Part shown: in pieces, positions 1,346 to 10,591 of the stretch
How positions within the stretch are numbered: the first letter of the stretch is position 1
Layout: every line of letters starts with the position of its first letter
IMG/VR virus record: IMGVR_UViG_2563366840_000001
Strand: one strand, 5' to 3'
Origin: a virus
Taxonomy: Duplodnaviria > Heunggongvirae > Uroviricota > Caudoviricetes
DNA: 64,000 nucleotides
Program-made: the position numbers and the translations under genes
The notes under the pieces: model-generated
What the model was told of the DNA's origin: nothing
Databases searched by the model: none
The model's input: only the letters and a program-made list of their open reading frames with translations

Positions 1346-1393
1346 GTCTCTTATGCAACATAACCGGTTGAGAAGTTACTTTGCATACCATTA

Positions 1394-1419: not shown

Positions 1420-1749
1420 GTGCTTGACACACAGGAATTAGCTCCAGTTGCTATTGCGCTCCTGCTTTCAGTAATTGGTGGGATAGGCACGTTCCTGATG
1501 GATGTCCGAGACGGTCGCCAGTCTGGCAATTTGTTGGGATTGGTTACGGAGATCTTTGTTGCAGTGACAGCTGGCGCGGTGGCGTACCTATTGGGGCAAC
1601 ACGAGGGCTGGGAGTTATCAATTACGTACTTAATGGTAACGATAGCCAGCAATAACGGTCATGAGGTGATTTCAGGGATGAAACGAGTGAATATCGATAG
1701 CATTCTGAATGTTCTTACAAGTTTGGTGAAAAAGGGAGGCGGGAAATGA
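1420..1749 (+). CDS. lydA: Holin LydA (GTG start)
   Basis: 109-aa protein with transmembrane segments, first gene of the operon preceding lydB/hdf/darA as in P1. Confidence 0.7.
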   Translation: MLDTQELAPVAIALLLSVIGGIGTFLMDVRDGRQSGNLLGLVTEIFVAVTAGAVAYLLGQHEGWELSITYLMVTIASNNGHEVISGMKRVNIDSILNVLTSLVKKGGGK

Positions 1750-2189
1750 TTGGCTGGGGTGTATGCGTTCTTGCGTTAGCCTTAGCCGATCGCTATTTGC
1801 TAAAACGCAAGGACATCACGCATTTAGAACTTGGTGATGTGGAAATTAAACCGGGTTTCATCCGGGTGCCGTTCAAATACCGGTCTAAATTCCCGTTTTT
1901 GCGCGGCGCAACGGTCAGATATTGGATCCGCGATGTTCAGAAGCCGACGACAGTGATTGAAGGCGAACAACGTTGTTTGACGTCGGCTGAACAGGGCGAA
2001 AACAGTGAATGGTTGTACATACCCACTGAATATATGGGTAAAGGAGAGCGACTGTGGCATTTCAACGTCATGGTTACGCATGGCGACTCGTTCATTAACC
2101 CGTTGTATCGGATTTTCCCTGTTACTCAGCAAATCCGCAGAAGTTACGTAATAAATCTCGCACAGGATGTGTCAGATGACGAAAAATAA
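1746..2189 (+). CDS. lydB: Antiholin LydB
   Basis: 147-aa ORF translationally coupled to lydA; position matches the P1 darA operon. Confidence 0.65.
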   Translation: MIGWGVCVLALALADRYLLKRKDITHLELGDVEIKPGFIRVPFKYRSKFPFLRGATVRYWIRDVQKPTTVIEGEQRCLTSAEQGENSEWLYIPTEYMGKGERLWHFNVMVTHGDSFINPLYRIFPVTQQIRRSYVINLAQDVSDDEK

Positions 2190-2778
2190 GTATGCAACGG
2201 TCGATTTTGACCAGGTTAATGAAAAGGGGCTGAAATCCCTTATCGCGGCGATCAATAAAACCGGTGTTACGGTAATTGAGGTTGACTCCAGCAACCGCGC
2301 AACAACGAAAGATGGCGTTAAAGTTAAAACCGCAAAGCTGGTTCTTAACGACGGACAAATTCTTGCCATACAGGTAAACGATACTGGCGATATATCGTCT
2401 GTGAGGCTGAATGGAAAAGCTATTCCTAACGCTCAGTCGCCGGATATCAAGACGCTTGGTACCGTCATGGGGCAAGCGGCCCGCAAAAACTCCGCAAAAT
2501 TCCAGAAATCACTGATCGCCAAAGCGAAACGTGTTGCCAATCCGGTAGACAAGAAACCGGCAGTAAAATCCAACTTTCAGCGCCTGCAAGAGGCAAAACA
2601 GCGGAATGCTCAGGTGGTTGCCGCTTATAAATCAGCGCAGAACTCGGTGTCTTTCAATCAACAGCAGATCACTGATTTGCGGGCGAAGCTGGATAAGGAG
2701 ACAGGCCGACTCAATAACGAAAAGGCCCGAAATGGCGAACTCAAACGCCGTCTTAAGCAACTGAAAGCAGGAAATTAA
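2167..2778 (+). CDS. hdf: Hdf, DarA-homologous antirestriction/capsid protein
   Basis: 203 aa; shares a KNSAKFQ-containing segment with the downstream DarA; directly precedes darA. Confidence 0.75.
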   Translation: MCQMTKNKYATVDFDQVNEKGLKSLIAAINKTGVTVIEVDSSNRATTKDGVKVKTAKLVLNDGQILAIQVNDTGDISSVRLNGKAIPNAQSPDIKTLGTVMGQAARKNSAKFQKSLIAKAKRVANPVDKKPAVKSNFQRLQEAKQRNAQVVAAYKSAQNSVSFNQQQITDLRAKLDKETGRLNNEKARNGELKRRLKQLKAGN

Positions 2779-2779
2779 C

Positions 2780-4699
2780 ATGGAACAGTTCAATATCAAT
2801 AAAGGGGTGACGATCAAGCCTGGGCTTGACGTGCTTCCCCCGCCAGTGACTGATGATGAATATCGCGCATTAATGGCCGGTGAGGACCGCTATCTGATGA
2901 CGGAATCCAACACCCTGGAGGAAATCGAGGCTACGTTCTTCTATGACACGCCGATCCACTGGTGTGCTACGGATTTACTGGAGGCGATTAGTTCTACTCG
3001 TTTGCAGTTACACCGGACCATGCAGGCATTTGTCCGGGCATTAAACCAGAAGCTGAATGGTACCGGAATCTCTGCGGGGAGTGATAAAACGGGGGATGTG
3101 GCCCAGAACGGTGCACGCGCGATCGGCGGGGCTGAAATTGGCCGGGCACGTAACGTTAACGGGCTGCCGGTCCTGCCAGCCATTATTCCGCTCAGTGATG
3201 GTCAGACTATCAGCATTCTGTTTCATAGCCCGACAGCGGAAAACCGGATCACCAATAGCGATACGCTGATTGCTTTCCAGTTCTTACTGAATAAAAAAGA
3301 CGTTACTCATACCGTTGCTCCGATGAGTGGACGTGATATGACGCTGGCGCAGGTCACCATGAAACTTGCCAACCTTGCAGAGAAAAACTCGGCAAAATTC
3401 CAGCGTGCGCAGAAGAAGAAAAAAGCCCTGGTTGATGAAATAACCCAACTACAGGCTGACAGTGACCAGAAAGAGGATGCCATGAGCGACCTCGCGGATC
3501 AGGTGGCAGCGGTAGAAGGGCAGAAGGTAGATCTGGAGCAGAAAATTAACGCTGTTGCATCGGAAGCGGATTCTCTTTATGAAGAGAATGAGCGTTTGCA
3601 GACGGAGATTGATCAGCTCAATCGAACTGGTGGGCGCGAAACCATTGCTCCTGCGGGGATGACTGGTGGACACTCTCGCGCGATGACGGATCGCCTTGCA
3701 AGTATCAAAAATCGTATGCATATGAACGGGGAAGTGACGCTCAGTAATGGTGCATCAATGAAGCAATTCATTGAGGACGGTGAAGGGTATATCCAGTTAA
3801 CCGATTCGGATGGCAGCGTGTACATGATCAAGGCTAAATCCATACAGGGTGTGGACATGGCAGATGCGATCGGCAAGCTGTTTAAAGCCTATAAAGCGGG
3901 TAATGTATCGGAATACCTGGTCCAACCAGAAGAACATAAACCGGAAAACGTCGAACCTGAACCAGCGGAGGATACCGGTAGCTCTTCGCCTGAACCAGAA
4001 GTCTCTGTAGGTGCATATCGATATGCCCTGCAAATGCGTCCGGCGGCCCCTGGCGCAATACCTGAAGGTAACAAAGCAATTCTGCCGCGCCCTGATGAAG
4101 GTGACCCGTATTATGAATATGCACGCTACGGCATTGCTACTTACGATACCCCGCTTTCTGATCAGCAAATGAGTGAGTACGACCTGAAGTTATTGCCTCG
4201 CGAGGATTCTTTCGACTTCTTGGCGAAGACACTTACTAATGGTCCGTTTGGCAAATATGCACAAAAAGCTCTGGAGCTGGCCACCAGCTCACCAGACGAG
4301 TTCCGCGTAATGCTGAAAACTCAGTTTCAAAAAACTTTCCCCAATATTGCGTATCCGGGGGGCGCTGGCACCGAAAAAATGGTGCAGAGCATGATCAATG
4401 CATTGCAGGCCGAAGTCGGTGAGATTACTCAGCCAGAACCTGCCCCGGCACAGCCTGATGAAACGGTTAGCGAAGCAGATGCAGAGGCTAATAAAGCCAT
4501 TGAATATCTCAATAACGTGATGGATATGCAAAGCACTGACATGGCGGAGATCCGTAACGCCCGGGGCAATGTCCGGGAAGCGATTGCAGCCCTTCAGGCT
4601 GCCGGGCGTTTTGAGGAAAACGAAGAGCTGGTTAATGGCGCTGCTCGCCACCTGGCTGATCTGCTGGTAGCAATCCAGAAAGCGGGGGTAGCGGCATGA
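2780..4699 (+). CDS. darA: DarA antirestriction capsid protein
   Basis: 639 aa, size and operon context as in P1 DarA; coiled-coil central region. Confidence 0.85.
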   Translation: MEQFNINKGVTIKPGLDVLPPPVTDDEYRALMAGEDRYLMTESNTLEEIEATFFYDTPIHWCATDLLEAISSTRLQLHRTMQAFVRALNQKLNGTGISAGSDKTGDVAQNGARAIGGAEIGRARNVNGLPVLPAIIPLSDGQTISILFHSPTAENRITNSDTLIAFQFLLNKKDVTHTVAPMSGRDMTLAQVTMKLANLAEKNSAKFQRAQKKKKALVDEITQLQADSDQKEDAMSDLADQVAAVEGQKVDLEQKINAVASEADSLYEENERLQTEIDQLNRTGGRETIAPAGMTGGHSRAMTDRLASIKNRMHMNGEVTLSNGASMKQFIEDGEGYIQLTDSDGSVYMIKAKSIQGVDMADAIGKLFKAYKAGNVSEYLVQPEEHKPENVEPEPAEDTGSSSPEPEVSVGAYRYALQMRPAAPGAIPEGNKAILPRPDEGDPYYEYARYGIATYDTPLSDQQMSEYDLKLLPREDSFDFLAKTLTNGPFGKYAQKALELATSSPDEFRVMLKTQFQKTFPNIAYPGGAGTEKMVQSMINALQAEVGEITQPEPAPAQPDETVSEADAEANKAIEYLNNVMDMQSTDMAEIRNARGNVREAIAALQAAGRFEENEELVNGAARHLADLLVAIQKAGVAA

Positions 4700-5061
4700 C
4701 ACTATCAGCTATTGAGTTAATGGATCTCAGCGATAAGTTGGATGCTCTGATGTCCAAAGCGGCTACCGCGAGTGGCATGGAGTTGCTGGATATCAGCGAT
4801 GAAATCGACCAGATCATGCAACAGATGGGGTACGGCGCGTCCGGCGGTGGTAGTGGCGAGGAAAAACAACCTTCGGAACATGATGGTGTGCCAAAACTGG
4901 TTGCTGATTTCCTGGCTGATAAATTCGTCGATCAGAGCACCGATGCATTTATCGGTACCTTGCAGGATTTGAGTCAATATGTTGGCACATACATCGACCT
5001 GGACCAGGTTAAACAGCACACGGCGGCATGGATAGCCGCCAACATTAAAGAGGCAGCATAA
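4696..5061 (+). CDS. ddrA: DdrA (Dar operon)
   Basis: 121-aa ORF overlapping the darA stop (ATGA coupling). Confidence 0.7.
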   Translation: MTLSAIELMDLSDKLDALMSKAATASGMELLDISDEIDQIMQQMGYGASGGGSGEEKQPSEHDGVPKLVADFLADKFVDQSTDAFIGTLQDLSQYVGTYIDLDQVKQHTAAWIAANIKEAA

Positions 5062-5073
5062 GGCGTAACAGGG

Positions 5074-8061
5074 ATGAGCTTAAGCGATCAGGTGGTAATG
5101 GCCACCAGCATAGAAACGCTGATCGAGCTGCTAAAGAACTTGCCCGATTATGGGCGGGTTTCGTATGTGGTGACAGCGAAGGGAGACGAGGTAAAAACAG
5201 CGTTTGATATCGTCGATGCCTCAGCTCTTTTGGTATCCAATACTCTGGATGGGAAAATTAATCCTGACTATCCCCAGGAACTTCAACCGCGCGACCGGAC
5301 CCGCGCATCCAGCCTTCTTCAGGTTAACCAGATATCCAAGGATTTGCGGCCTGCTCAGCTTACCGATTCCGGTCTATCCAGCCATGGCGCGCCGATAATT
5401 GGTGAGGACAATGCCGTTGAGTCAGGTAATGGACGGACCATGGGGATCATTAAAGCCTATCAGGACGGCAATGCGGATCGGTATCGTGAGTACCTGATTG
5501 ATCATGCGACCGAATTCGGCATACGACCTGAAAAGGTTGAATCAATGACGGCTCCGGTACTGGTGCGCCGCCGGTTAACTAAGGTTGACCGCGTTCAGTT
5601 TGCCAAGGACTCAAATATTTCTGATCTTCAGGAAATGGCAGCCAGTGAAAAGGCTTTTGTTGATGCCGACAGCATAACACCGGCGATGATGGCGCTTTTT
5701 AACCCGTCAGAAAGCGGAGATCTGCTTAGCCGCAGTAATGACACGTTTATTCGCGGATTTATGACGCAAGTTGGTGCCACACAGGCGGCTGGCCTTGTAA
5801 CTGAAGATGGGCGACCAACACGGCAACTTGTAGACCGTATACAAAACGCGATCTTTGCCAAGGCATATAAGGATGCGCGCCTGGTAAGGATGGTTGCAGA
5901 AGAACCTGATCCGGATATGCGTAATGTTCTGACGGCGCTTAATGCGGCAGCCAATGATTTTGTCCAGATGCAGGCTTTGTCAGGAGAAGCGCACAAGCAG
6001 GCTGTGACAACTATTGTTGATGGCATTGAGACAGCGGATAGCCTCGATAAAAAGGCGCTGGCGGCATTGAAAGATGCGGTAGACCTGGTAAGGCAATCGA
6101 AGGAGTCAGGCCAGCATATTACCGATGTTATTGCTCAGGGGGATATGTTCAGCGAAACGGCCCCGGAAGTGAAAGCACTCGCGTTGTTCATCGTCGCGAA
6201 TAACCGTAGCGCGAAGCGTATGGCCACCGCCTTTAAGTTGATGGCGCAACGTATCAATGATGAGTTACAGCACCAGGGCCAGGCGCTCGGGGATATGTTT
6301 GGCGGCGGCGATGTGTCGTTACAGGATATCCTTCGCCAGGTGTCTCAGGAACTGGAAAACGAAGGCATGCAAGGGATATCCGGCGGTCTTTTCGAGTCCG
6401 TTTCCGGCGGTAGTTACAACGGTGTTGCTCCATATACCAGCTTGCTATTACATCGGGCATCCGGCATCAAAGACATTATTCATCTGATCAGGCTGCTATC
6501 CCGCACCGATCCCCAGGATGAGCAGCTTGTACAAGTGCTTGCGCATTTTGTCCGAATGCCTGTTGCCGACGTAAAAAAATGGTGCCGATTATTCGGTATC
6601 AGCAATTCGTTACTTCGCGGATTGTTAAATCACGCATCCTCCCTTGGGCGCGACGGCTTTGATGAGATAGCGCAGGCGATAAAAAACGGAGATATGCCAC
6701 CAGCTATTGACTGGTTTTCCATTCGCCCAACCAGGGTGAAAGCATTCCTTAGCGCGGCGCATTCGGCATCACCATTGGCAGAAATGGTTCAGAGGTTGTC
6801 GCTCATATTCACAGACCATACCGCGTTGGGTGATCTGACTCTGGACGAGATGAAAGAAGCCTCCATTCAGTGGGCCGATCAACAAAATGAGGTTAACTCT
6901 GACTTCTTGCCAGCATTCAGGAAGGCCGTTAGTAAAGTGGATGATGCCCGTGGAATTCTGAAGGCATTTAAGGCATTGCAAAGTCGGGTTAATAAACATG
7001 TCGGTGATATCGATGGGGTAACGGCGGAAGGCAGGGATATCCTTAAAGAGCACGGCATAACGCCAGAGTTTATTGATGAGATCAGGACGGATATGCAGCG
7101 TGAGGTCGTATCGTCCCTGCAAATCGTAGCCAGAGCGTTGGCGGATGCTAATCCGAAGAGTGCGGCCATTGTTAACCGGGTTATTGGTGATATTGAAGCA
7201 TCGGAGGGCATGGGGGCGCTGAAACTCTTCCTTTCGCGAGCGTTTAATCCTAACGGCAATATTCTCCCCGGCATTATTTGTGAGGCTAAAAAGTATGTCA
7301 GCGAAGAAGAACTTGAGCATCTTGACCAACTACTTAAGCGATTCTCATATAACCCGCAGACACGCTGGCAAATGAATCAGCGAAGTATGGGTTCGGTCCA
7401 CGAGAAAGTGTTATCTGCCATGAACAGTGCGATCGCCAACTCATCCGTATCTGAAGAAAAAGCTCTTGAGTGGGCCGACTCTTTTATCACGGAAGAAGTG
7501 GAAGAAGCCCGCGCTGGACAGAATGGTGGGATAGACCTGCGCAAGGAACTTGCTGATATTTATCGCCTGACCGGCGGTAAAATTTCGACCTTATCAAAGG
7601 TGGTTCACCACCAGGGAAGGGCATATGCAAATCTAAATGGTGTTGTTGCTGTCAATTTGAACGATGAAAATGCAAGTGCACTGTGGCACGAGCTGGGTCA
7701 TCATCTTGAGTACAGTAACCCTGGTTTGTTAGAGAAAGCCCGGTCATTCCTGAAGGCCAATGTTGAAGGGGATAAGCCATCTTTCGTTAATATCGGTGGG
7801 CGTGGCAAGCCTGAATGGTGCTTCAGATCTCGATTGAGTAATATTTATATGGCGAAGGTATACCCGCCAGCCTCAGTAAGTAACACCGGGAAAATTCGGC
7901 AGAAATCACCGACTATTTCCAAAACGTCAGCAACGGAAGTATTCTCTATGGCTCTTCAGTTGTATCATGACAAAGAGGCCGCTGCCGCATCACTGATGAA
8001 TGGTGACGGATTGCTGGAACTGTTATTAGGTGTGGCAAAGGAGCTAAATAATGCAGATTAA
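5074..8061 (+). CDS. ddrB: DdrB, large Dar-operon capsid-associated protein
   Basis: 995-aa ORF following ddrA. Confidence 0.8.
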   Translation: MSLSDQVVMATSIETLIELLKNLPDYGRVSYVVTAKGDEVKTAFDIVDASALLVSNTLDGKINPDYPQELQPRDRTRASSLLQVNQISKDLRPAQLTDSGLSSHGAPIIGEDNAVESGNGRTMGIIKAYQDGNADRYREYLIDHATEFGIRPEKVESMTAPVLVRRRLTKVDRVQFAKDSNISDLQEMAASEKAFVDADSITPAMMALFNPSESGDLLSRSNDTFIRGFMTQVGATQAAGLVTEDGRPTRQLVDRIQNAIFAKAYKDARLVRMVAEEPDPDMRNVLTALNAAANDFVQMQALSGEAHKQAVTTIVDGIETADSLDKKALAALKDAVDLVRQSKESGQHITDVIAQGDMFSETAPEVKALALFIVANNRSAKRMATAFKLMAQRINDELQHQGQALGDMFGGGDVSLQDILRQVSQELENEGMQGISGGLFESVSGGSYNGVAPYTSLLLHRASGIKDIIHLIRLLSRTDPQDEQLVQVLAHFVRMPVADVKKWCRLFGISNSLLRGLLNHASSLGRDGFDEIAQAIKNGDMPPAIDWFSIRPTRVKAFLSAAHSASPLAEMVQRLSLIFTDHTALGDLTLDEMKEASIQWADQQNEVNSDFLPAFRKAVSKVDDARGILKAFKALQSRVNKHVGDIDGVTAEGRDILKEHGITPEFIDEIRTDMQREVVSSLQIVARALADANPKSAAIVNRVIGDIEASEGMGALKLFLSRAFNPNGNILPGIICEAKKYVSEEELEHLDQLLKRFSYNPQTRWQMNQRSMGSVHEKVLSAMNSAIANSSVSEEKALEWADSFITEEVEEARAGQNGGIDLRKELADIYRLTGGKISTLSKVVHHQGRAYANLNGVVAVNLNDENASALWHELGHHLEYSNPGLLEKARSFLKANVEGDKPSFVNIGGRGKPEWCFRSRLSNIYMAKVYPPASVSNTGKIRQKSPTISKTSATEVFSMALQLYHDKEAAAASLMNGDGLLELLLGVAKELNNAD

Positions 8062-8362
8062 AATCGCAGCGCCATTAGGCGGAGATGCCATTATCGAATT
8101 TGATGATAATGAAGAAGTTTCCGGGCGTTTAAGCATTATCTCCGGTGACATTACCGAGGACATGATCGCTGAAGCCATAGCTGGGGCAAATCCCAATAGC
8201 TATATGGGATTCGTTAACACCCTTGATGCTCCCGCAAGTGATGTTCTCCGAACGCTACATCTTTACGCTGGCTGGTTTGTTGATTGGCCAGCAGTAGATG
8301 GTGGCGATGAGGACGACGACGACGATGATTTTGGTGATCATGTAGACCAGATCGTATATTGA
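8051..8362 (+). CDS. Small highly acidic protein ending the Dar operon
   Basis: 103 aa, D/E-rich with a C-terminal DEDDDDDD run; overlaps the ddrB stop. Confidence 0.6.
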   Translation: MQIKIAAPLGGDAIIEFDDNEEVSGRLSIISGDITEDMIAEAIAGANPNSYMGFVNTLDAPASDVLRTLHLYAGWFVDWPAVDGGDEDDDDDDFGDHVDQIVY

Positions 8363-8365
8363 AGA

Positions 8366-8393
8366 AATCCCGCCAATCGGCGGGATTTTTTTT
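8366..8393. terminator. Rho-independent terminator (bidirectional) between convergent operons
   Basis: AATCCCGCC-aatc-GGCGGGATT stem followed by T8; A-run on the other side. Confidence 0.8.
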
Positions 8394-9180
8394 AATCGCT
8401 TTCCACTTCTTCCGTGGTGTTTTCTTGCAGTTCTGTTAATGCAGCACGACATAGGTTCCGGGCATTGGCTATAGCTACACTTTTGACTTCATCTGTCATC
8501 GTGCAGGTAATGTACTGATCGAGTTCTTCAGCGCGGATGATGCTTTTGCCAATCAGAAACTGTATTTGCCAGAGCAGATCGGCATCCATAATCAGAATTT
8601 CTGCCGGGCCTTCAGGGCCAGCCGGGAAGGAAACATAAGACTGTTTGCCCAGGCCGATAACTCGACAACTTGCTTCAAGAATTGCGCGATTGAGGTCTGA
8701 CTTTGTAACTGAAACAGGTTGATTTTCACCTGCGATTACGCCGTTGACATGGATGTGGAATGGCATGTAGCTTGAAATTCGCTCTACTTTCCATACGCCA
8801 GCAAGCGATCCTTCATGCAGCACAATGGGGGTAACCGCGAGTTTCATCTCACCATATAACTGCTGGCAGATGGCTGGATTGCTGAATACATCCAAAGGTT
8901 CACACTCAAACAGCGGCGCAATCTGCATGAGGTCCATCATGGTCATACCAGGGGTACGAGCAGTAATGAATCTGCGCATGCCAGTATCCATTGTGCGCCA
9001 GATAGCTACACCATGCTTTTTGCTCACTTCTTCAGTAAAGCCAAGGTGGCACATGATGGTTTTTTCGATAGCCAGATCAGAGATAGAAACCTTTTCGCCA
9101 GGTACACCATCATTATTGATGGCCACTTCGACACTCTGGCCATTACGCAGGCGGTATTGAATTGCTTTAGTATTTTCCAC
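8392..9180 (-). CDS. Hypothetical protein in the ssb operon
   Basis: 262-aa ORF directly downstream of the DUF2829 gene on the minus strand. Confidence 0.6.
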   Translation of the reverse strand: MENTKAIQYRLRNGQSVEVAINNDGVPGEKVSISDLAIEKTIMCHLGFTEEVSKKHGVAIWRTMDTGMRRFITARTPGMTMMDLMQIAPLFECEPLDVFSNPAICQQLYGEMKLAVTPIVLHEGSLAGVWKVERISSYMPFHIHVNGVIAGENQPVSVTKSDLNRAILEASCRVIGLGKQSYVSFPAGPEGPAEILIMDADLLWQIQFLIGKSIIRAEELDQYITCTMTDEVKSVAIANARNLCRAALTELQENTTEEVESD

Positions 9181-9186
9181 GTTAAA

Positions 9187-9864
9187 TCACTCCACTACAA
9201 ACCAGTCACATGCCAGTAAGTCGCCTACAGAAGGCACCCACGGAACAACTACACCTTGTGCATTTTTTAAGGCGAAATAAGCACCATACGGAACGAGGTC
9301 GCCGGGGAAATATCCCTTAATGGCTTCCATTCGTGCCGGGTACTGTCCTTCAGGAACCAGCCAGCAGAATTGGTTTTCGCCGTTCCACCCGCGTCGAGCA
9401 ACTTTCTTGCCATCCTTCAGCCACATCAGCGCGTCAGAAAAGTCGGCTGCTTCAAGGTCGATTTCTTCTTGTGTGGTAATGATGCCACTGGCAGCAATAG
9501 TTACGTCCCTGGCTGTAATGAATGTCACCCCATTGTGACCTTCAATACTGAGCGATACCCCATTTTCGAAGAAGTCGTTAGTCCGACTAAAGCCTTCTTC
9601 AAATGTTTTTTCTGGTGAATAGGACAGAGATCCGTCCTCATAAGCGACCAGATATCCGCCAATTTCTGGTCGGTGTTTTTGCAAAAACATTTTATCAACA
9701 TGGACTTTTACCCCTTCTGGCTCAACGACTTCGATGTTGCAAAAAAGGACCACATCCATTAGGGCGATAATTTCGATATCTTTGATTTTTGAGGCGCGAA
9801 CTGTTTTATGGCTTTTGTATTTTGGAAGTGCCGTCAAAAGCTCTTTCGTTGTCATGTTATTCAT
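9187..9864 (-). CDS. DUF2829 (Tad2-like) domain protein
   Basis: C-terminus ARRGWNGENQF...WVPSVGDLLACDWFVVE matches the DUF2829 signature; ATG at 9864 has an AGGAAAG SD; the track ORF extends to 10032 via a basic low-complexity N-terminus. Confidence 0.6.
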   Translation of the reverse strand: MNNMTTKELLTALPKYKSHKTVRASKIKDIEIIALMDVVLFCNIEVVEPEGVKVHVDKMFLQKHRPEIGGYLVAYEDGSLSYSPEKTFEEGFSRTNDFFENGVSLSIEGHNGVTFITARDVTIAASGIITTQEEIDLEAADFSDALMWLKDGKKVARRGWNGENQFCWLVPEGQYPARMEAIKGYFPGDLVPYGAYFALKNAQGVVVPWVPSVGDLLACDWFVVE

Positions 9865-10066
9865 AGTCTTTCCTCTGCTTAAAACCTGATGTATTGCGCC
9901 TTCAGGTGGGTCAGGAATGTTTTCCCACCAGCGAAAGCAATATCTCGGGGTGTTCTTTTCGTGAAAAGCGCGTGCCATTGCCAACTTTGGCGTTTTTTTG
10001 CGAGTTCGTGCTTTTGTCGGCGTCTTGACCACCGCTTTTCTTTCAGTCGTTTTTTACTCATAAACT

Positions 10067-10555
10067 CTAAAACGGAATATCGTCGTCAAAGTCCATTGGA
10101 GATTCGTTATTGGCGTTGCTCTGAGGTTTACCGCCACCACTGTATTGCTGGTGGTTTTGAGGTTGGTTTGATTGCCCCCAGCCATTTGAGGACTGTGAAT
10201 CGTCACGGCGAGCGCCGATCATTTGCATGGTGCCGCCCTGGCTGACGATAATTTCCGTCGTGTAACGTTCTACACCGGCGTCATCTGTCCACTTACGGGT
10301 TTTAAGTTTTCCTTCGATGTAGACCTGAGAACCTTTTCGTAAATACTCACTCGCAATTTCAGCAAGTTTCCCGAACAAAACGACTCTATGCCATTCTGTT
10401 TGCTCTTTCTGTTGGCCCGTTTGCTTGTCGCGCCATGATTCATTTGTTGCGATGCTTAGTCTTCCGACCGTTCCGCCATTTGGTATATACCTGATCTCCG
10501 GGTCTTGCCCCAGAGTACCAATCAGGATGACTTTGTTTACACCGCGTTGTGCCAC
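10067..10555 (-). CDS. ssb: Single-stranded DNA-binding protein
   Basis: [22 protein letters not shown]-fold N-terminus and acidic C-terminal tail DFDDDIPF; probable GTG start (track ORF starts at upstream TTG 10576). Confidence 0.93.
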
Positions 10556-10574
10556 TTTTCTTACCCAATAAAAC

Positions 10575-10591
10575 AAATTAATTAGAGCAAT
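10575..10591 (-). promoter_or_regulatory. C1 operator 17-mer (ATTGCTCTAATTAATTT on minus strand)
   Basis: 16/17 match to the P1 C1 operator consensus ATTGCTCTAATAAATTT; in the ssb/lyz divergent region. Confidence 0.7.

What the first reader, a model, noticed from the sequence alone, without database searches (positions are those of the whole stretch)
2167..8362. Dar antirestriction operon ending in a strongly acidic small protein
hdf and darA share a KNSAKFQ-containing segment, indicating a partial duplication. The last ORF (103 aa) is very D/E rich with a DEDDDDDD tail, a composition reminiscent of DNA-mimic anti-restriction proteins, and it sits in an operon whose known role is protecting DNA from restriction.
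Basis: partly seen in the sequence, partly recalled or inferred. Interest (0 to 1): 0.45.

Follow-up and report, generated by a model that had tools for sequence, protein, structure and literature searches.

The report
Phage P1 Dar operon and Hxr
This is the well-known anti-restriction (Dar) operon of a P1-like phage; its last gene, the very acidic 103-residue protein, is the uncharacterised P1 gene hxr, which appears to be mislabelled as a repressor and instead always accompanies the protease end of DdrB.

Summary
Both observations are real, but the locus is already known. The window is a P1-like phage-plasmid, about 98% identical to P1, RCS47 and SJ46. Positions 2167-8362 hold hdf, darA, ddrA, ddrB and hxr of the late darA operon. 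The Hdf/DarA similarity is a shared Pfam DarA_N domain.

The 103-aa ORF is P1 Hxr (98% identical), annotated since 2004 as a 'possible repressor; homolog of Xre'. That label fails. None of 19 family members has an HTH match, the pI is 4.05, and the predicted fold is beta-beta-beta-alpha-alpha-beta plus a disordered acidic tail.

What the data do show is obligate coupling. hxr overlaps the ddrB stop codon in every relative. Across 33 clusters of the DdrB-type C-terminal metallopeptidase, about 29 have a coupled ORF of 64-107 aa, usually acidic, directly downstream, whatever the N-terminal domains.

The most likely role is a partner or regulator of the DdrB peptidase module. That step is inferred, not shown. 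Interest is low to moderate.

The parts
1373..1391 (+). LPdar late promoter (-22 box and -10) that drives lydA-lydB-hdf-darA-ddrA-ddrB-hxr
   Evidence: Annotated in P1 NC_005856. The whole annotated promoter (window 1373-1391) is identical to P1; the only mismatch in the 66-nt alignment lies upstream of it.
1420..2189 (+). lydA (1420-1749) and lydB (1746-2189), the first genes of the same late operon; they lie outside the finding's coordinates
   Evidence: Pfam Phage_holin_3_3 and LydB (E 8e-104); P1 annotation.
2167..2778 (+). hdf: basic protein (pI 10.3, net charge +21) with a DarA_N domain
   Evidence: Pfam DarA_N E 1.5e-21; charge; P1 annotation; BLASTP against DarA.
2780..4699 (+). darA: DarA_N plus DarA_C domains
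   Evidence: Pfam E 3.2e-42 and 5.6e-17; P1 annotation.
4696..5061 (+). ddrA
   Evidence: PHROG 1855, DdrA-like anti-restriction protein, E 9.8e-58; P1 annotation.
5074..8061 (+). ddrB: polyvalent protein with an N-terminal ddrB-ParB domain (aa 36-167) and a C-terminal zincin-like metallopeptidase (HELGH at aa 872-876, nt 7687-7701)
   Evidence: Pfam ddrB-ParB E 2.2e-39. The LWHExGH..E motif is invariant in the alignment with relatives, including Vibrio phage VAP7. The metallopeptidase assignment is from PMC5512222.
8038..8043 (+). Shine-Dalgarno sequence AAGGAG of hxr, 7 nt before the ATG and inside the end of ddrB
   Evidence: Read directly from the sequence.
8051..8362 (+). hxr: 103-aa acidic protein. 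Folded core aa 1-82 (beta-beta-beta-alpha-alpha-beta). Acidic tail predicted disordered, aa 83-103 (nt 8297-8359), ending in ..QIVY.
   Evidence: 98% identical to P1 Hxr; PHROG 2292, function unknown; AF2 model with mean pLDDT 75.8 and core blocks mostly 82-90; charge; family alignment.
8306..8329 (+). D-E-D6 tract encoded by a GAC/GAT run; its length is polymorphic among relatives, always in frame
8361..8393 (.). Intrinsic terminator hairpin (14-bp stem, AATC loop; T run on the + strand, matching A run on the - strand) between the convergent genes hxr and the 262-aa ORF; it marks the end of the operon
   Evidence: RNA fold dG -21 kcal/mol, z -4.28, 0 of 200 shuffles as stable.

Best explanation
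The region is the late darA (Dar anti-restriction) operon of a P1-like phage-plasmid, and its last gene is P1 hxr. Hxr is not an Xre-type repressor. It is a small acidic protein made in fixed translational coupling with DdrB. It belongs to a class of short, mostly acidic proteins encoded directly after the DdrB-type C-terminal zinc metallopeptidase (MPTase) of virion-delivered 'polyvalent' proteins.

The most likely mechanism is that Hxr binds the DdrB peptidase module during late infection and controls when it acts. It could hold the peptidase inactive, or guide the known 108-to-76 kDa maturation and packaging of DdrB. Binding would use the folded core and the conserved extreme C-terminus (..[I/V]-x-COOH). 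The acidic tail would be a lineage-specific electrostatic add-on.

Shown: gene identity, coupling, conservation, purifying selection, acidity, absence of an HTH, and association with the MPTase rather than with the ParB domain.

Inferred: physical binding and any regulatory effect.
For: Identity.
- 98% identical to P1 Hxr; the operon is 97.6-98.6% identical to P1, RCS47 and SJ46.

Coupling.
- The hxr start overlaps the ddrB stop by 11-17 nt in the window, P1, RCS47, Cronobacter JK004, a Rosenbergiella plasmid, a Citrobacter plasmid and metagenomic relatives (29-64% identical to window Hxr). The overlap persists even where an IS or a HicB gene separates ddrA from ddrB.
- The one apparently stand-alone copy (L003) still carries the last ~60 nt of ddrB, cut by an IS.

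Specificity.
- jackhmmer from Hxr against 4052 distinct ORFs of all fetched loci returns 45 hits. All lie directly downstream of ddrB-type genes, with no false positives.

The small ORF tracks the MPTase, not ParB.
- The upstream protein carries ddrB-ParB, MuF, or no recognisable N-terminal domain.
- Phage D6 has only the N-terminal 454 aa of DdrB and no Hxr.
- In L176 the order is MPTase gene, small ORF, separate ParB gene.

Breadth.
- Of 33 assessable MPTase clusters (>=70% identity), 22 have an acidic ORF starting -17..+3 nt from the stop. Three more are coupled but not acidic. Four more have a small ORF at +12..+59.
- Within the 22, three clusters (L234, L255/L256, L257) carry a long second polyvalent protein at that position rather than a small ORF.
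- The background rate in the same loci is 3 of 275 other long ORFs.

Shared C-terminal signature.
- The penultimate residue is V or I in 18 of 25 clusters (P 8e-11).
- It is V or I in 12 of the 18 clusters not counted as Hxr-family in that test (P 5e-7). One of these, L307, later joined the Hxr family.

Independent hint.
- The 90-aa protein encoded right after the MPTase gene of Vibrio phage VAP7 appeared among the top 50 BFVD fold matches of the Hxr model (TM 0.43/0.48).

Selection.
- pN/pS is 0.08.
Against: - Homology between Hxr and the small ORFs of most other MPTase lineages is not demonstrable. hhalign gives probabilities of 1.2% and 0.2%, and 15 separate sequence families occupy the position. 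The shared position could reflect several unrelated partners.
- The net charge of the MPTase domain does not anticorrelate with that of the small ORF (Spearman -0.08, p 0.71).
- The tempting 'product mimic' reading has no conserved support. In P1, AAIVN701|R would give a 76.5 kDa fragment, but the tripeptide is not conserved in other DdrBs.
- hxr is dispensable for plaque formation (CRISPRi; PMC10695390), and no phenotype has been published.
Confidence: 0.4

Rival explanations
1. DNA-mimic anti-restriction or anti-defence protein. Hxr's negative surface and poly-Asp tail would imitate DNA and titrate type I restriction enzymes or other DNA-binding defences. It would act either after being injected with the Dar cargo or in the producing cell late in infection.
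For: - Strong acidity: net charge -21, pI 4.05, 23% D/E.
- Acidity is conserved in both the core (net -3 to -10) and the tail (-3 to -13) across the whole Hxr family.
- The protein is small and sits in the operon whose products protect DNA from type I restriction.
- The most acidic members accompany ParB-bearing DdrBs.
- Absence from the virion proteome is weak evidence. With K/R only at positions 4, 26 and 67, Hxr gives tryptic peptides of 4, 22, 41 and 36 residues, against a threshold of two unique peptides (sequence).
Against: - No sequence or profile match to Ocr, ArdA or any Pfam, NCBIfam or PDB entry.
- No fold match in PDB or BFVD.
- Half of the charge lies in a disordered tail rather than on a rigid DNA-shaped surface.
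- Transcription is from a late promoter.
- Hxr is not among the six Dar proteins defined by deletion analysis and virion mass spectrometry.
- Positional counterparts in other phages can be neutral or basic (VAP7 pI 9.6, L253 pI 7.8, L320 pI 6.8).
Confidence: 0.2
2. Packaged internal head protein with a physical role. Hxr would ride into the capsid on DdrB and act as an acidic counter-ion, spacer or ejection aid next to the strongly basic Hdf, without a specific enzymatic target.
For: - All the other products from hdf to ddrB are internal head proteins.
- Hdf has net charge +21 and Hxr -21.
- In three MPTase lineages the same genomic position holds the N-terminus of a second polyvalent cargo protein (L234, L255-L257), which suggests a docking or packaging role for that position.
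Against: - Hxr was not detected in purified P1 virions (with the tryptic-peptide caveat).
- According to PMC5512222, the DdrB fragment that is packaged is predicted to be the N-terminal 76 kDa piece. That would leave the peptidase end, and anything bound to it, outside the capsid.
- The charge symmetry with Hdf may be coincidence.
Confidence: 0.1
3. Xre-like transcriptional repressor, as in the current database annotation ('possible repressor; homolog of Xre').
For: Only the 2004 annotation note, which cites 28% identity over aa 23-80 to a phage Xre repressor. Later records propagate it.
Against: - No helix-turn-helix family match in any of 19 family members, even at E <= 10.
- pI 4.05 with only 3 basic residues.
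- The predicted fold is a three-strand sheet plus two helices and a fourth strand, not a five-helix HTH bundle.
- The gene is the last cistron of a late structural operon, translationally coupled to a virion protein.
Confidence: 0.02

Closest known systems
Phage P1 darA operon and P1 Hxr (YP_006490, PHROG 2292)
   Same: Same genes in the same order and at about 98% nucleotide identity. The LPdar promoter is identical. Hxr is 98% identical; the only changes are N56D, A81V and one fewer Asp.
   Different: No IS1 lies downstream. The window has an intact 262-aa gene and a Tad2-like gene where P1 has isaB, IS1 and isaA.
DNA-mimic anti-restriction proteins (T7 Ocr, ArdA)
   Same: Small, very acidic, and encoded by a mobile element that fights type I restriction.
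   Different: No sequence or fold similarity. Much of the charge lies in a disordered tail. Expression is late rather than immediate-early. No evidence of delivery or of enzyme binding.
Toxin/immunity and protease/inhibitor gene pairs (for example, immunity genes after metallopeptidase toxin domains of polymorphic toxins; colicin DNase-Im pairs). This comparison is from general knowledge.
   Same: A short, acidic, fast-diverging ORF is translationally coupled to the 3' end of a gene whose last domain is an enzyme. The pairing is kept while the other domains are swapped.
   Different: DdrB's peptidase is thought to process DdrB itself rather than to be a toxin (PMC5512222). No binding or inhibition data exist, and there is no homology to any described immunity family.
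Xre-family HTH repressors
   Same: Only the size (about 100 aa) and the historical annotation.
   Different: No HTH motif, acidic rather than basic, mixed alpha/beta fold, late structural-operon context.
Acidic C-terminal tails ending in a hydrophobic motif (E. coli and P1 SSB ..DFDDDIPF; T7 gp2.5). This comparison is from general knowledge; the P1-like SSB tail is visible in the window at 10067-10576.
   Same: A disordered poly-acidic stretch followed by a short conserved hydrophobic C-terminal motif, which suggests a docking peptide.
   Different: The terminal motif differs (..IVY or ..IVN rather than ..IPF), and Hxr has no OB fold.

Membership tests
P1-type darA (Dar) operon | Gene order lydA-lydB-hdf-darA-ddrA-ddrB-hxr on one strand | tested here: met
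   ORF map and alignment to the annotated records of P1 and RCS47.
P1-type darA (Dar) operon | DarA_N domain (in Hdf and DarA), DarA_C domain, and ddrB-ParB domain | tested here: met
   Pfam E-values from 1.5e-21 to 3.2e-42.
P1-type darA (Dar) operon | Late promoter LPdar upstream of lydA | tested here: met
   The 19-nt annotated promoter is identical to P1. Promoter activity itself was not tested.
P1-type darA (Dar) operon | Protection of packaged DNA from type I restriction | not testable with these tools
   Known for P1 from the literature (PMC9024508, PMC12810830).
P1 Hxr family (PHROG 2292) | Full-length sequence match | tested here: met
   98% identity to P1 Hxr; PHROG 2292 E 3.2e-60.
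Xre-type HTH repressor | Helix-turn-helix domain (Pfam HTH_3, HTH_19 or HTH_31) | tested here: not met
   0 of 19 family members match any HTH model at E <= 10.
Xre-type HTH repressor | All-alpha five-helix fold | tested here: not met
   The AF2 model has strands 2-6, 12-16, 28-32 and 76-78 and helices 36-44 and 62-71.
Xre-type HTH repressor | Specific operator binding | not testable with these tools
   Needs EMSA or ChIP.
DNA-mimic anti-restriction proteins (Ocr, ArdA) | Small and strongly acidic | tested here: met
   103 aa, pI 4.05, net charge -21.
DNA-mimic anti-restriction proteins (Ocr, ArdA) | Sequence or fold relationship to a known mimic | tested here: not met
DNA-mimic anti-restriction proteins (Ocr, ArdA) | Negative charges fixed on a rigid surface with DNA-like spacing | tested here: inconclusive
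   The core carries net charge -10. The other -11 lies in residues 83-103, which have pLDDT mostly below 50.
DNA-mimic anti-restriction proteins (Ocr, ArdA) | Present when the DNA enters the cell (immediate-early expression or virion delivery) | tested here: inconclusive
   The promoter is late. Hxr is not listed among the 27 virion proteins, but it yields only one favourable tryptic peptide.
DNA-mimic anti-restriction proteins (Ocr, ArdA) | Binds and inhibits a restriction enzyme | not testable with these tools
   Needs plating assays and biochemistry.
Cognate partner of the DdrB-type metallopeptidase (proposed here; immunity- or inhibitor-like pair) | Translationally coupled ORF directly after the enzyme domain | tested here: met
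   The overlap is 11 nt here and -17..+3 nt in 25 of 33 MPTase clusters. The background rate is 3 of 275.
Cognate partner of the DdrB-type metallopeptidase (proposed here; immunity- or inhibitor-like pair) | Co-occurrence follows the enzyme domain and not the other domains | tested here: met
   The upstream N-terminal domain can be ParB, MuF or none. D6 lacks both the MPTase half and Hxr. L176 has a permuted gene order.
Cognate partner of the DdrB-type metallopeptidase (proposed here; immunity- or inhibitor-like pair) | Physical binding to, or modulation of, the peptidase | not tested
   No complex prediction was possible (cap reached). The charge-complementarity test was null.

The most novel reading that the evidence does not exclude
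Hxr-type proteins are the cognate 'safety catch' or docking partner of a clade of zinc metallopeptidases that end phage polyvalent (virion-injected) proteins. This would be a two-gene module conserved across P1-like, Ackermannviridae-like and many uncultured phages, and not described in the polyvalent-protein literature I could read. In the P1 lineage the partner has additionally acquired a DNA-like poly-acidic tail. That tail could give it a second role as a decoy for DNA-binding host defences, which would make it a seventh, overlooked Dar component.
Probability: 0.3. Interest if true: 0.55.

Novelty: already known. Interest (0 to 1): 0.3.

Why it matters
P1 is the textbook transducing phage, and its Dar system is the paradigm for virion-delivered anti-restriction. 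About 9% of complete E. coli genomes carry this segment on P1-like plasmids.

The practical result here is a correction. The 'putative repressor Hxr' label that is propagated through phage and plasmid annotations has no support.

The lead worth testing is that DdrB, and many other injected polyvalent proteins ending in the same metallopeptidase, come with a dedicated small partner. If that partner controls the peptidase, it would explain how such proteins are kept intact or are cut at the right time. It would also give a handle on DdrB's still unknown biochemical role.

Tried and rejected
- Remote homology of Hxr to large repeat proteins (P0021, P0024, P0026). These are SprB-type or other repeat proteins whose score is summed over weak repeats, so the hits are spurious.
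- Homology between Hxr and the VAP7 90-aa protein, or the L178/L243/L234 group. hhalign gives probabilities of 1.2% and 0.2%. I kept them only as positional counterparts.
- Charge complementarity between the MPTase domain and the small ORF. Result null.
- 'Product mimic' idea. P1 DdrB has a single IVN tripeptide at 699-701, and cutting there gives 76.5 kDa. The tripeptide is not conserved in other DdrBs, and about one such tripeptide is expected by chance. I kept it as an unexplained coincidence.
- A stand-alone Hxr homologue (L003) that seemed to break the ddrB linkage. It is an IS-truncated remnant that still carries the ddrB 3' end.
- The afdb50 fold library was not available.
- The genome-contig scan returned only one locus.
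- Piya et al. 2017 and Lobocka et al. 2004 are not in the held library. Statements about them rest on how other papers cite them.
- A broad literature search for Hxr returned only unrelated uses of the acronym.

Full report
WHAT IS THERE

The window is a P1-like phage-plasmid. Positions 1700-9300 match P1, P7, RCS47, SJ46 and relatives at 97.6-98.8% identity over 88-100% of the query. The annotated P1 and RCS47 records show the same genes in the same order: cin, lydC, lydA, lydB, hdf, darA, ddrA, ddrB, hxr.

- hdf 2167-2778
- darA 2780-4699
- ddrA 4696-5061
- ddrB 5074-8061
- a 103-aa ORF at 8051-8362

Pfam finds DarA_N in both Hdf and DarA, DarA_C in DarA, and ddrB-ParB in DdrB. The annotated P1 late promoter LPdar is identical in the window at 1373-1391. 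A strong hairpin terminator at 8361-8393 closes the operon.

CHECK OF THE TWO OBSERVATIONS

1. Hdf and DarA do share KNSAKFQ. It sits inside a 31%-identical stretch that corresponds to their common DarA_N domain. This is real homology. It is already built into the gene name and the Pfam family, and a 2026 cryo-EM paper describes DarA-Hdf pairs in the P1 head (PMC12810830).

2. The 103-aa protein is very acidic: 24 D/E against 3 K/R, pI 4.05, with the run DEDDDDDD at residues 86-93. It is 98% identical to P1 Hxr. Several lines show it is a real gene:
- AAGGAG lies 7 nt before the ATG, and the start overlaps the ddrB stop by 11 nt.
- pN/pS is about 0.08 across 22 core alleles.
- All 80 IMG/VR relatives keep the frame, although the Asp run varies from 4 to 8 or more residues.

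WHAT HXR IS NOT

P1's annotation calls Hxr a 'possible repressor; homolog of Xre', and later records copy this. I found no support for it.
- No Pfam family matches at E <= 0.01.
- No helix-turn-helix family matches any of 19 family members, even at E <= 10.
- There is no NCBIfam hit and no PDB sequence or profile hit. The PHROG family has unknown function.
- With a 19-sequence alignment, the AlphaFold2 model (mean pLDDT 75.8; core blocks mostly 82-90, one at 69) has strands at 2-6, 12-16 and 28-32, helices at 36-44 and 62-71, a strand at 76-78, and a low-confidence tail from residue 83. That is not an HTH bundle.

FAMILY AND CONTEXT

The family is small: 27 clusters at 90% identity in 5.8 billion proteins, and 18 hits in an exhaustive HMMER scan of 1.84 billion representatives. 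Three of those 18 hits are spurious repeat proteins.

Members sit on contigs of about 80-96 kb from Escherichia, Klebsiella, Citrobacter, Cronobacter and Rosenbergiella. In every case examined, the gene begins 11-17 nt before the stop codon of ddrB. The linkage survives an IS605 insertion (RCS47) or a HicB gene (L087) between ddrA and ddrB.

There were two apparent exceptions.
- A copy next to DinI and IS elements still carries the last ~60 nt of ddrB and is an IS-truncated remnant.
- A tandemly duplicated 184-aa version also follows ddrB.

Both the folded core (net charge -3 to -10) and the tail (-3 to -13) stay acidic throughout the family, and the extreme C-terminus is conserved as ..[I/V][I/V]N or ..IVY.

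THE LINK IS TO THE PEPTIDASE END OF DdrB

Iyer et al. describe DdrB as a polyvalent protein. It has an N-terminal ParB-like domain and a C-terminal zincin-like metallopeptidase (MPTase), and it is processed to 76 kDa before packaging (PMC5512222).

Phage D6 has only the N-terminal 454 residues of DdrB and has no Hxr. Conversely, Vibrio phage VAP7 (Ackermannviridae) has a 1207-aa protein with no recognisable Pfam domain, of which only the last ~220 residues match DdrB (HExxH region, E 4e-14). The gene 3 nt downstream encodes a 90-aa protein. That protein had already appeared among the top 50 BFVD fold matches of the Hxr model (TM 0.43/0.48). By my estimate, the chance that a random top-50 hit is the immediate downstream neighbour of one of the handful of DdrB-C homologues is below 1e-3.

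I then used the C-terminal MPTase alignment to fetch diverse loci from IMG/VR and metagenomes. Clustered at 70% identity, 33 MPTase clusters could be assessed.
- 22 have an acidic ORF of at least 55 aa starting -17 to +3 nt from the MPTase stop.
- 3 more are coupled but neutral or basic.
- 4 more have a small ORF at +12 to +59.
- Within the 22, three clusters (L234, L255/L256, L257) carry a second long polyvalent protein at that position rather than a small ORF.
- Counting everything, about 29 of 33 clusters have an ORF directly downstream.

In the same loci, only 3 of 275 other long ORFs have such a neighbour.

The N-terminal part of the MPTase protein varies: ddrB-ParB, MuF, or nothing recognisable. 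In one contig the order is MPTase gene, small ORF, then a separate ParB gene. So the small ORF follows the peptidase, not ParB.

By sequence, only some of these small ORFs are Hxr homologues: the P1-like group plus L172-175, L179 and L307. An iterative search over 4052 ORFs returned 45 hits, all downstream of ddrB-type genes, with no false positives. The rest fall into at least 14 other families or singletons, and profile-profile comparison does not link them to Hxr.

They nevertheless share size, usually acidity, and a C-terminal signature. The penultimate residue is V or I in 18 of 25 clusters (P 8e-11). It is V or I in 12 of the 18 clusters not counted as Hxr-family in that test (P 5e-7); one of these, L307, later joined the Hxr family.

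MECHANISM

Shown:
- Hxr is a conserved, selected, late-expressed acidic protein.
- It is translationally coupled to DdrB.
- Its presence tracks the DdrB-type peptidase module.

Inferred: Hxr binds that module and regulates its activity, or DdrB maturation and packaging. The conserved C-terminal end would act as a docking peptide, and the poly-acidic tail would be a lineage-specific addition. I put about 0.4 on this.

Two tests of specific versions failed.
- The net charges of the peptidase domain and the partner do not anticorrelate.
- The 'product-mimic' idea has no conserved support. P1 DdrB has a single IVN at 699-701, and cutting there gives exactly 76.5 kDa. But the motif is absent at that position in other DdrBs, and about one such tripeptide is expected by chance.

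I give it about 0.2. It is compatible with the conserved acidity and the operon context, and with the fact that the most acidic members accompany ParB-bearing DdrBs. It has no positive evidence beyond composition.

Several points count against it.
- The operon is late.
- Hxr is not among the six Dar proteins or the 27 virion proteins reported for P1 (PMC9024508, PMC12810830).
- CRISPRi knock-down has no effect on plating, and that paper cites Piya 2017 for non-essentiality (PMC10695390).

One caveat applies. Hxr has K/R only at positions 4, 26 and 67, so trypsin gives one usable peptide. A threshold of two peptides would miss the protein even if it were packaged.

COMPARISON AND VERDICT

As a locus this is already known: it is the P1 darA operon at 98% identity, hxr included. 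Three results appear to be undescribed in the literature I could search. The Xre label is unsupported. Hxr has an unmatched predicted fold with a conserved acidic tail. A small coupled ORF is a near-constant companion of this MPTase clade; the polyvalent-protein paper does not mention one.

These are modest, testable leads and not a discovery. Interest is 0.3.

Noticed in passing
window 9187-10032 (- strand): A 281-aa ORF (the true start is probably Met57) carries a Pfam Tad2-like (DUF2829, Thoeris anti-defence 2) domain at aa 197-280, E 2.4e-22. Only its first ~57 codons match P1 isaA. The 163 nt at its 3' end and junction with the 262-aa ORF (window 9138-9300) are 98% identical to phage D6, where the match overlaps a DUF2829 gene. 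This is a possible signal-sponge anti-defence gene that P1 itself lacks at this spot.
   Followed up: partly
window 8392-9180 (- strand): A 262-aa ORF (PHROG 2326, function unknown) is the intact form of the gene that IS1 splits into isaB and isaA in P1. There is no IS1 in this window.
   Followed up: partly
window 8394-10066, and the same interval in L001, L002, L005, L086, L087, L088, L250: The interval between the hxr terminator and ssb (or the lysozyme/CHAP gene) is a cargo hot spot in P1-like elements. Its contents include IS1 (P1), ISSod13 plus IS26 plus a lacY fragment (RCS47), an OmpD porin (P7-like), an MqsA/RelE toxin-antitoxin pair, and an Arc-like gene.
   Followed up: no
window 8306-8329: The GAC/GAT run that encodes the Asp tract of Hxr is length-polymorphic (4 to 8 or more Asp) among 80 related loci, always in multiples of three. 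This looks like slippage under a frame constraint.
   Followed up: yes
window 7159-7176 (DdrB residues 696-701): DdrB has a single [IV][IV][NY] tripeptide (AAIVN701|R). Cutting after it gives 76.5 kDa, the reported size of processed DdrB, and Hxr-family proteins end in ..IVN or ..IVY. The tripeptide is not conserved in other DdrBs, so this may be coincidence.
   Followed up: yes
window 5628-6026 (- strand): This 132-aa ORF, annotated in P1 as iddB, lies wholly inside ddrB on the opposite strand. I saw nothing that supports it as a gene.
   Followed up: no
L176 3371-6122: In one uncultured phage contig the DdrB modules are split and permuted into three genes: an MPTase protein, a 76-aa acidic ORF, and then a protein 59% identical to DdrB residues 23-444.
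   Followed up: partly
L234 4867-7428; L255, L256, L257: In several metagenomic phages the position of the small ORF is taken by the N-terminus of a second polyvalent protein. In L234 this protein carries PBECR3 and InPase domains (Pfam) and a further HExxH motif, and its start overlaps the stop of the upstream MPTase gene by 4 nt.
   Followed up: partly
L250 6001-6555: A P7-like relative encodes a tandemly duplicated Hxr (184 aa, two cores and one acidic tail) after ddrB.
   Followed up: partly
window 7900-8400: 479 of 5426 complete E. coli genomes carry this ddrB-3'/hxr segment. Of the 482 matching places, 471 are on plasmids of about 90-100 kb. RefSeq calls the product 'hypothetical protein'.
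   Followed up: yes
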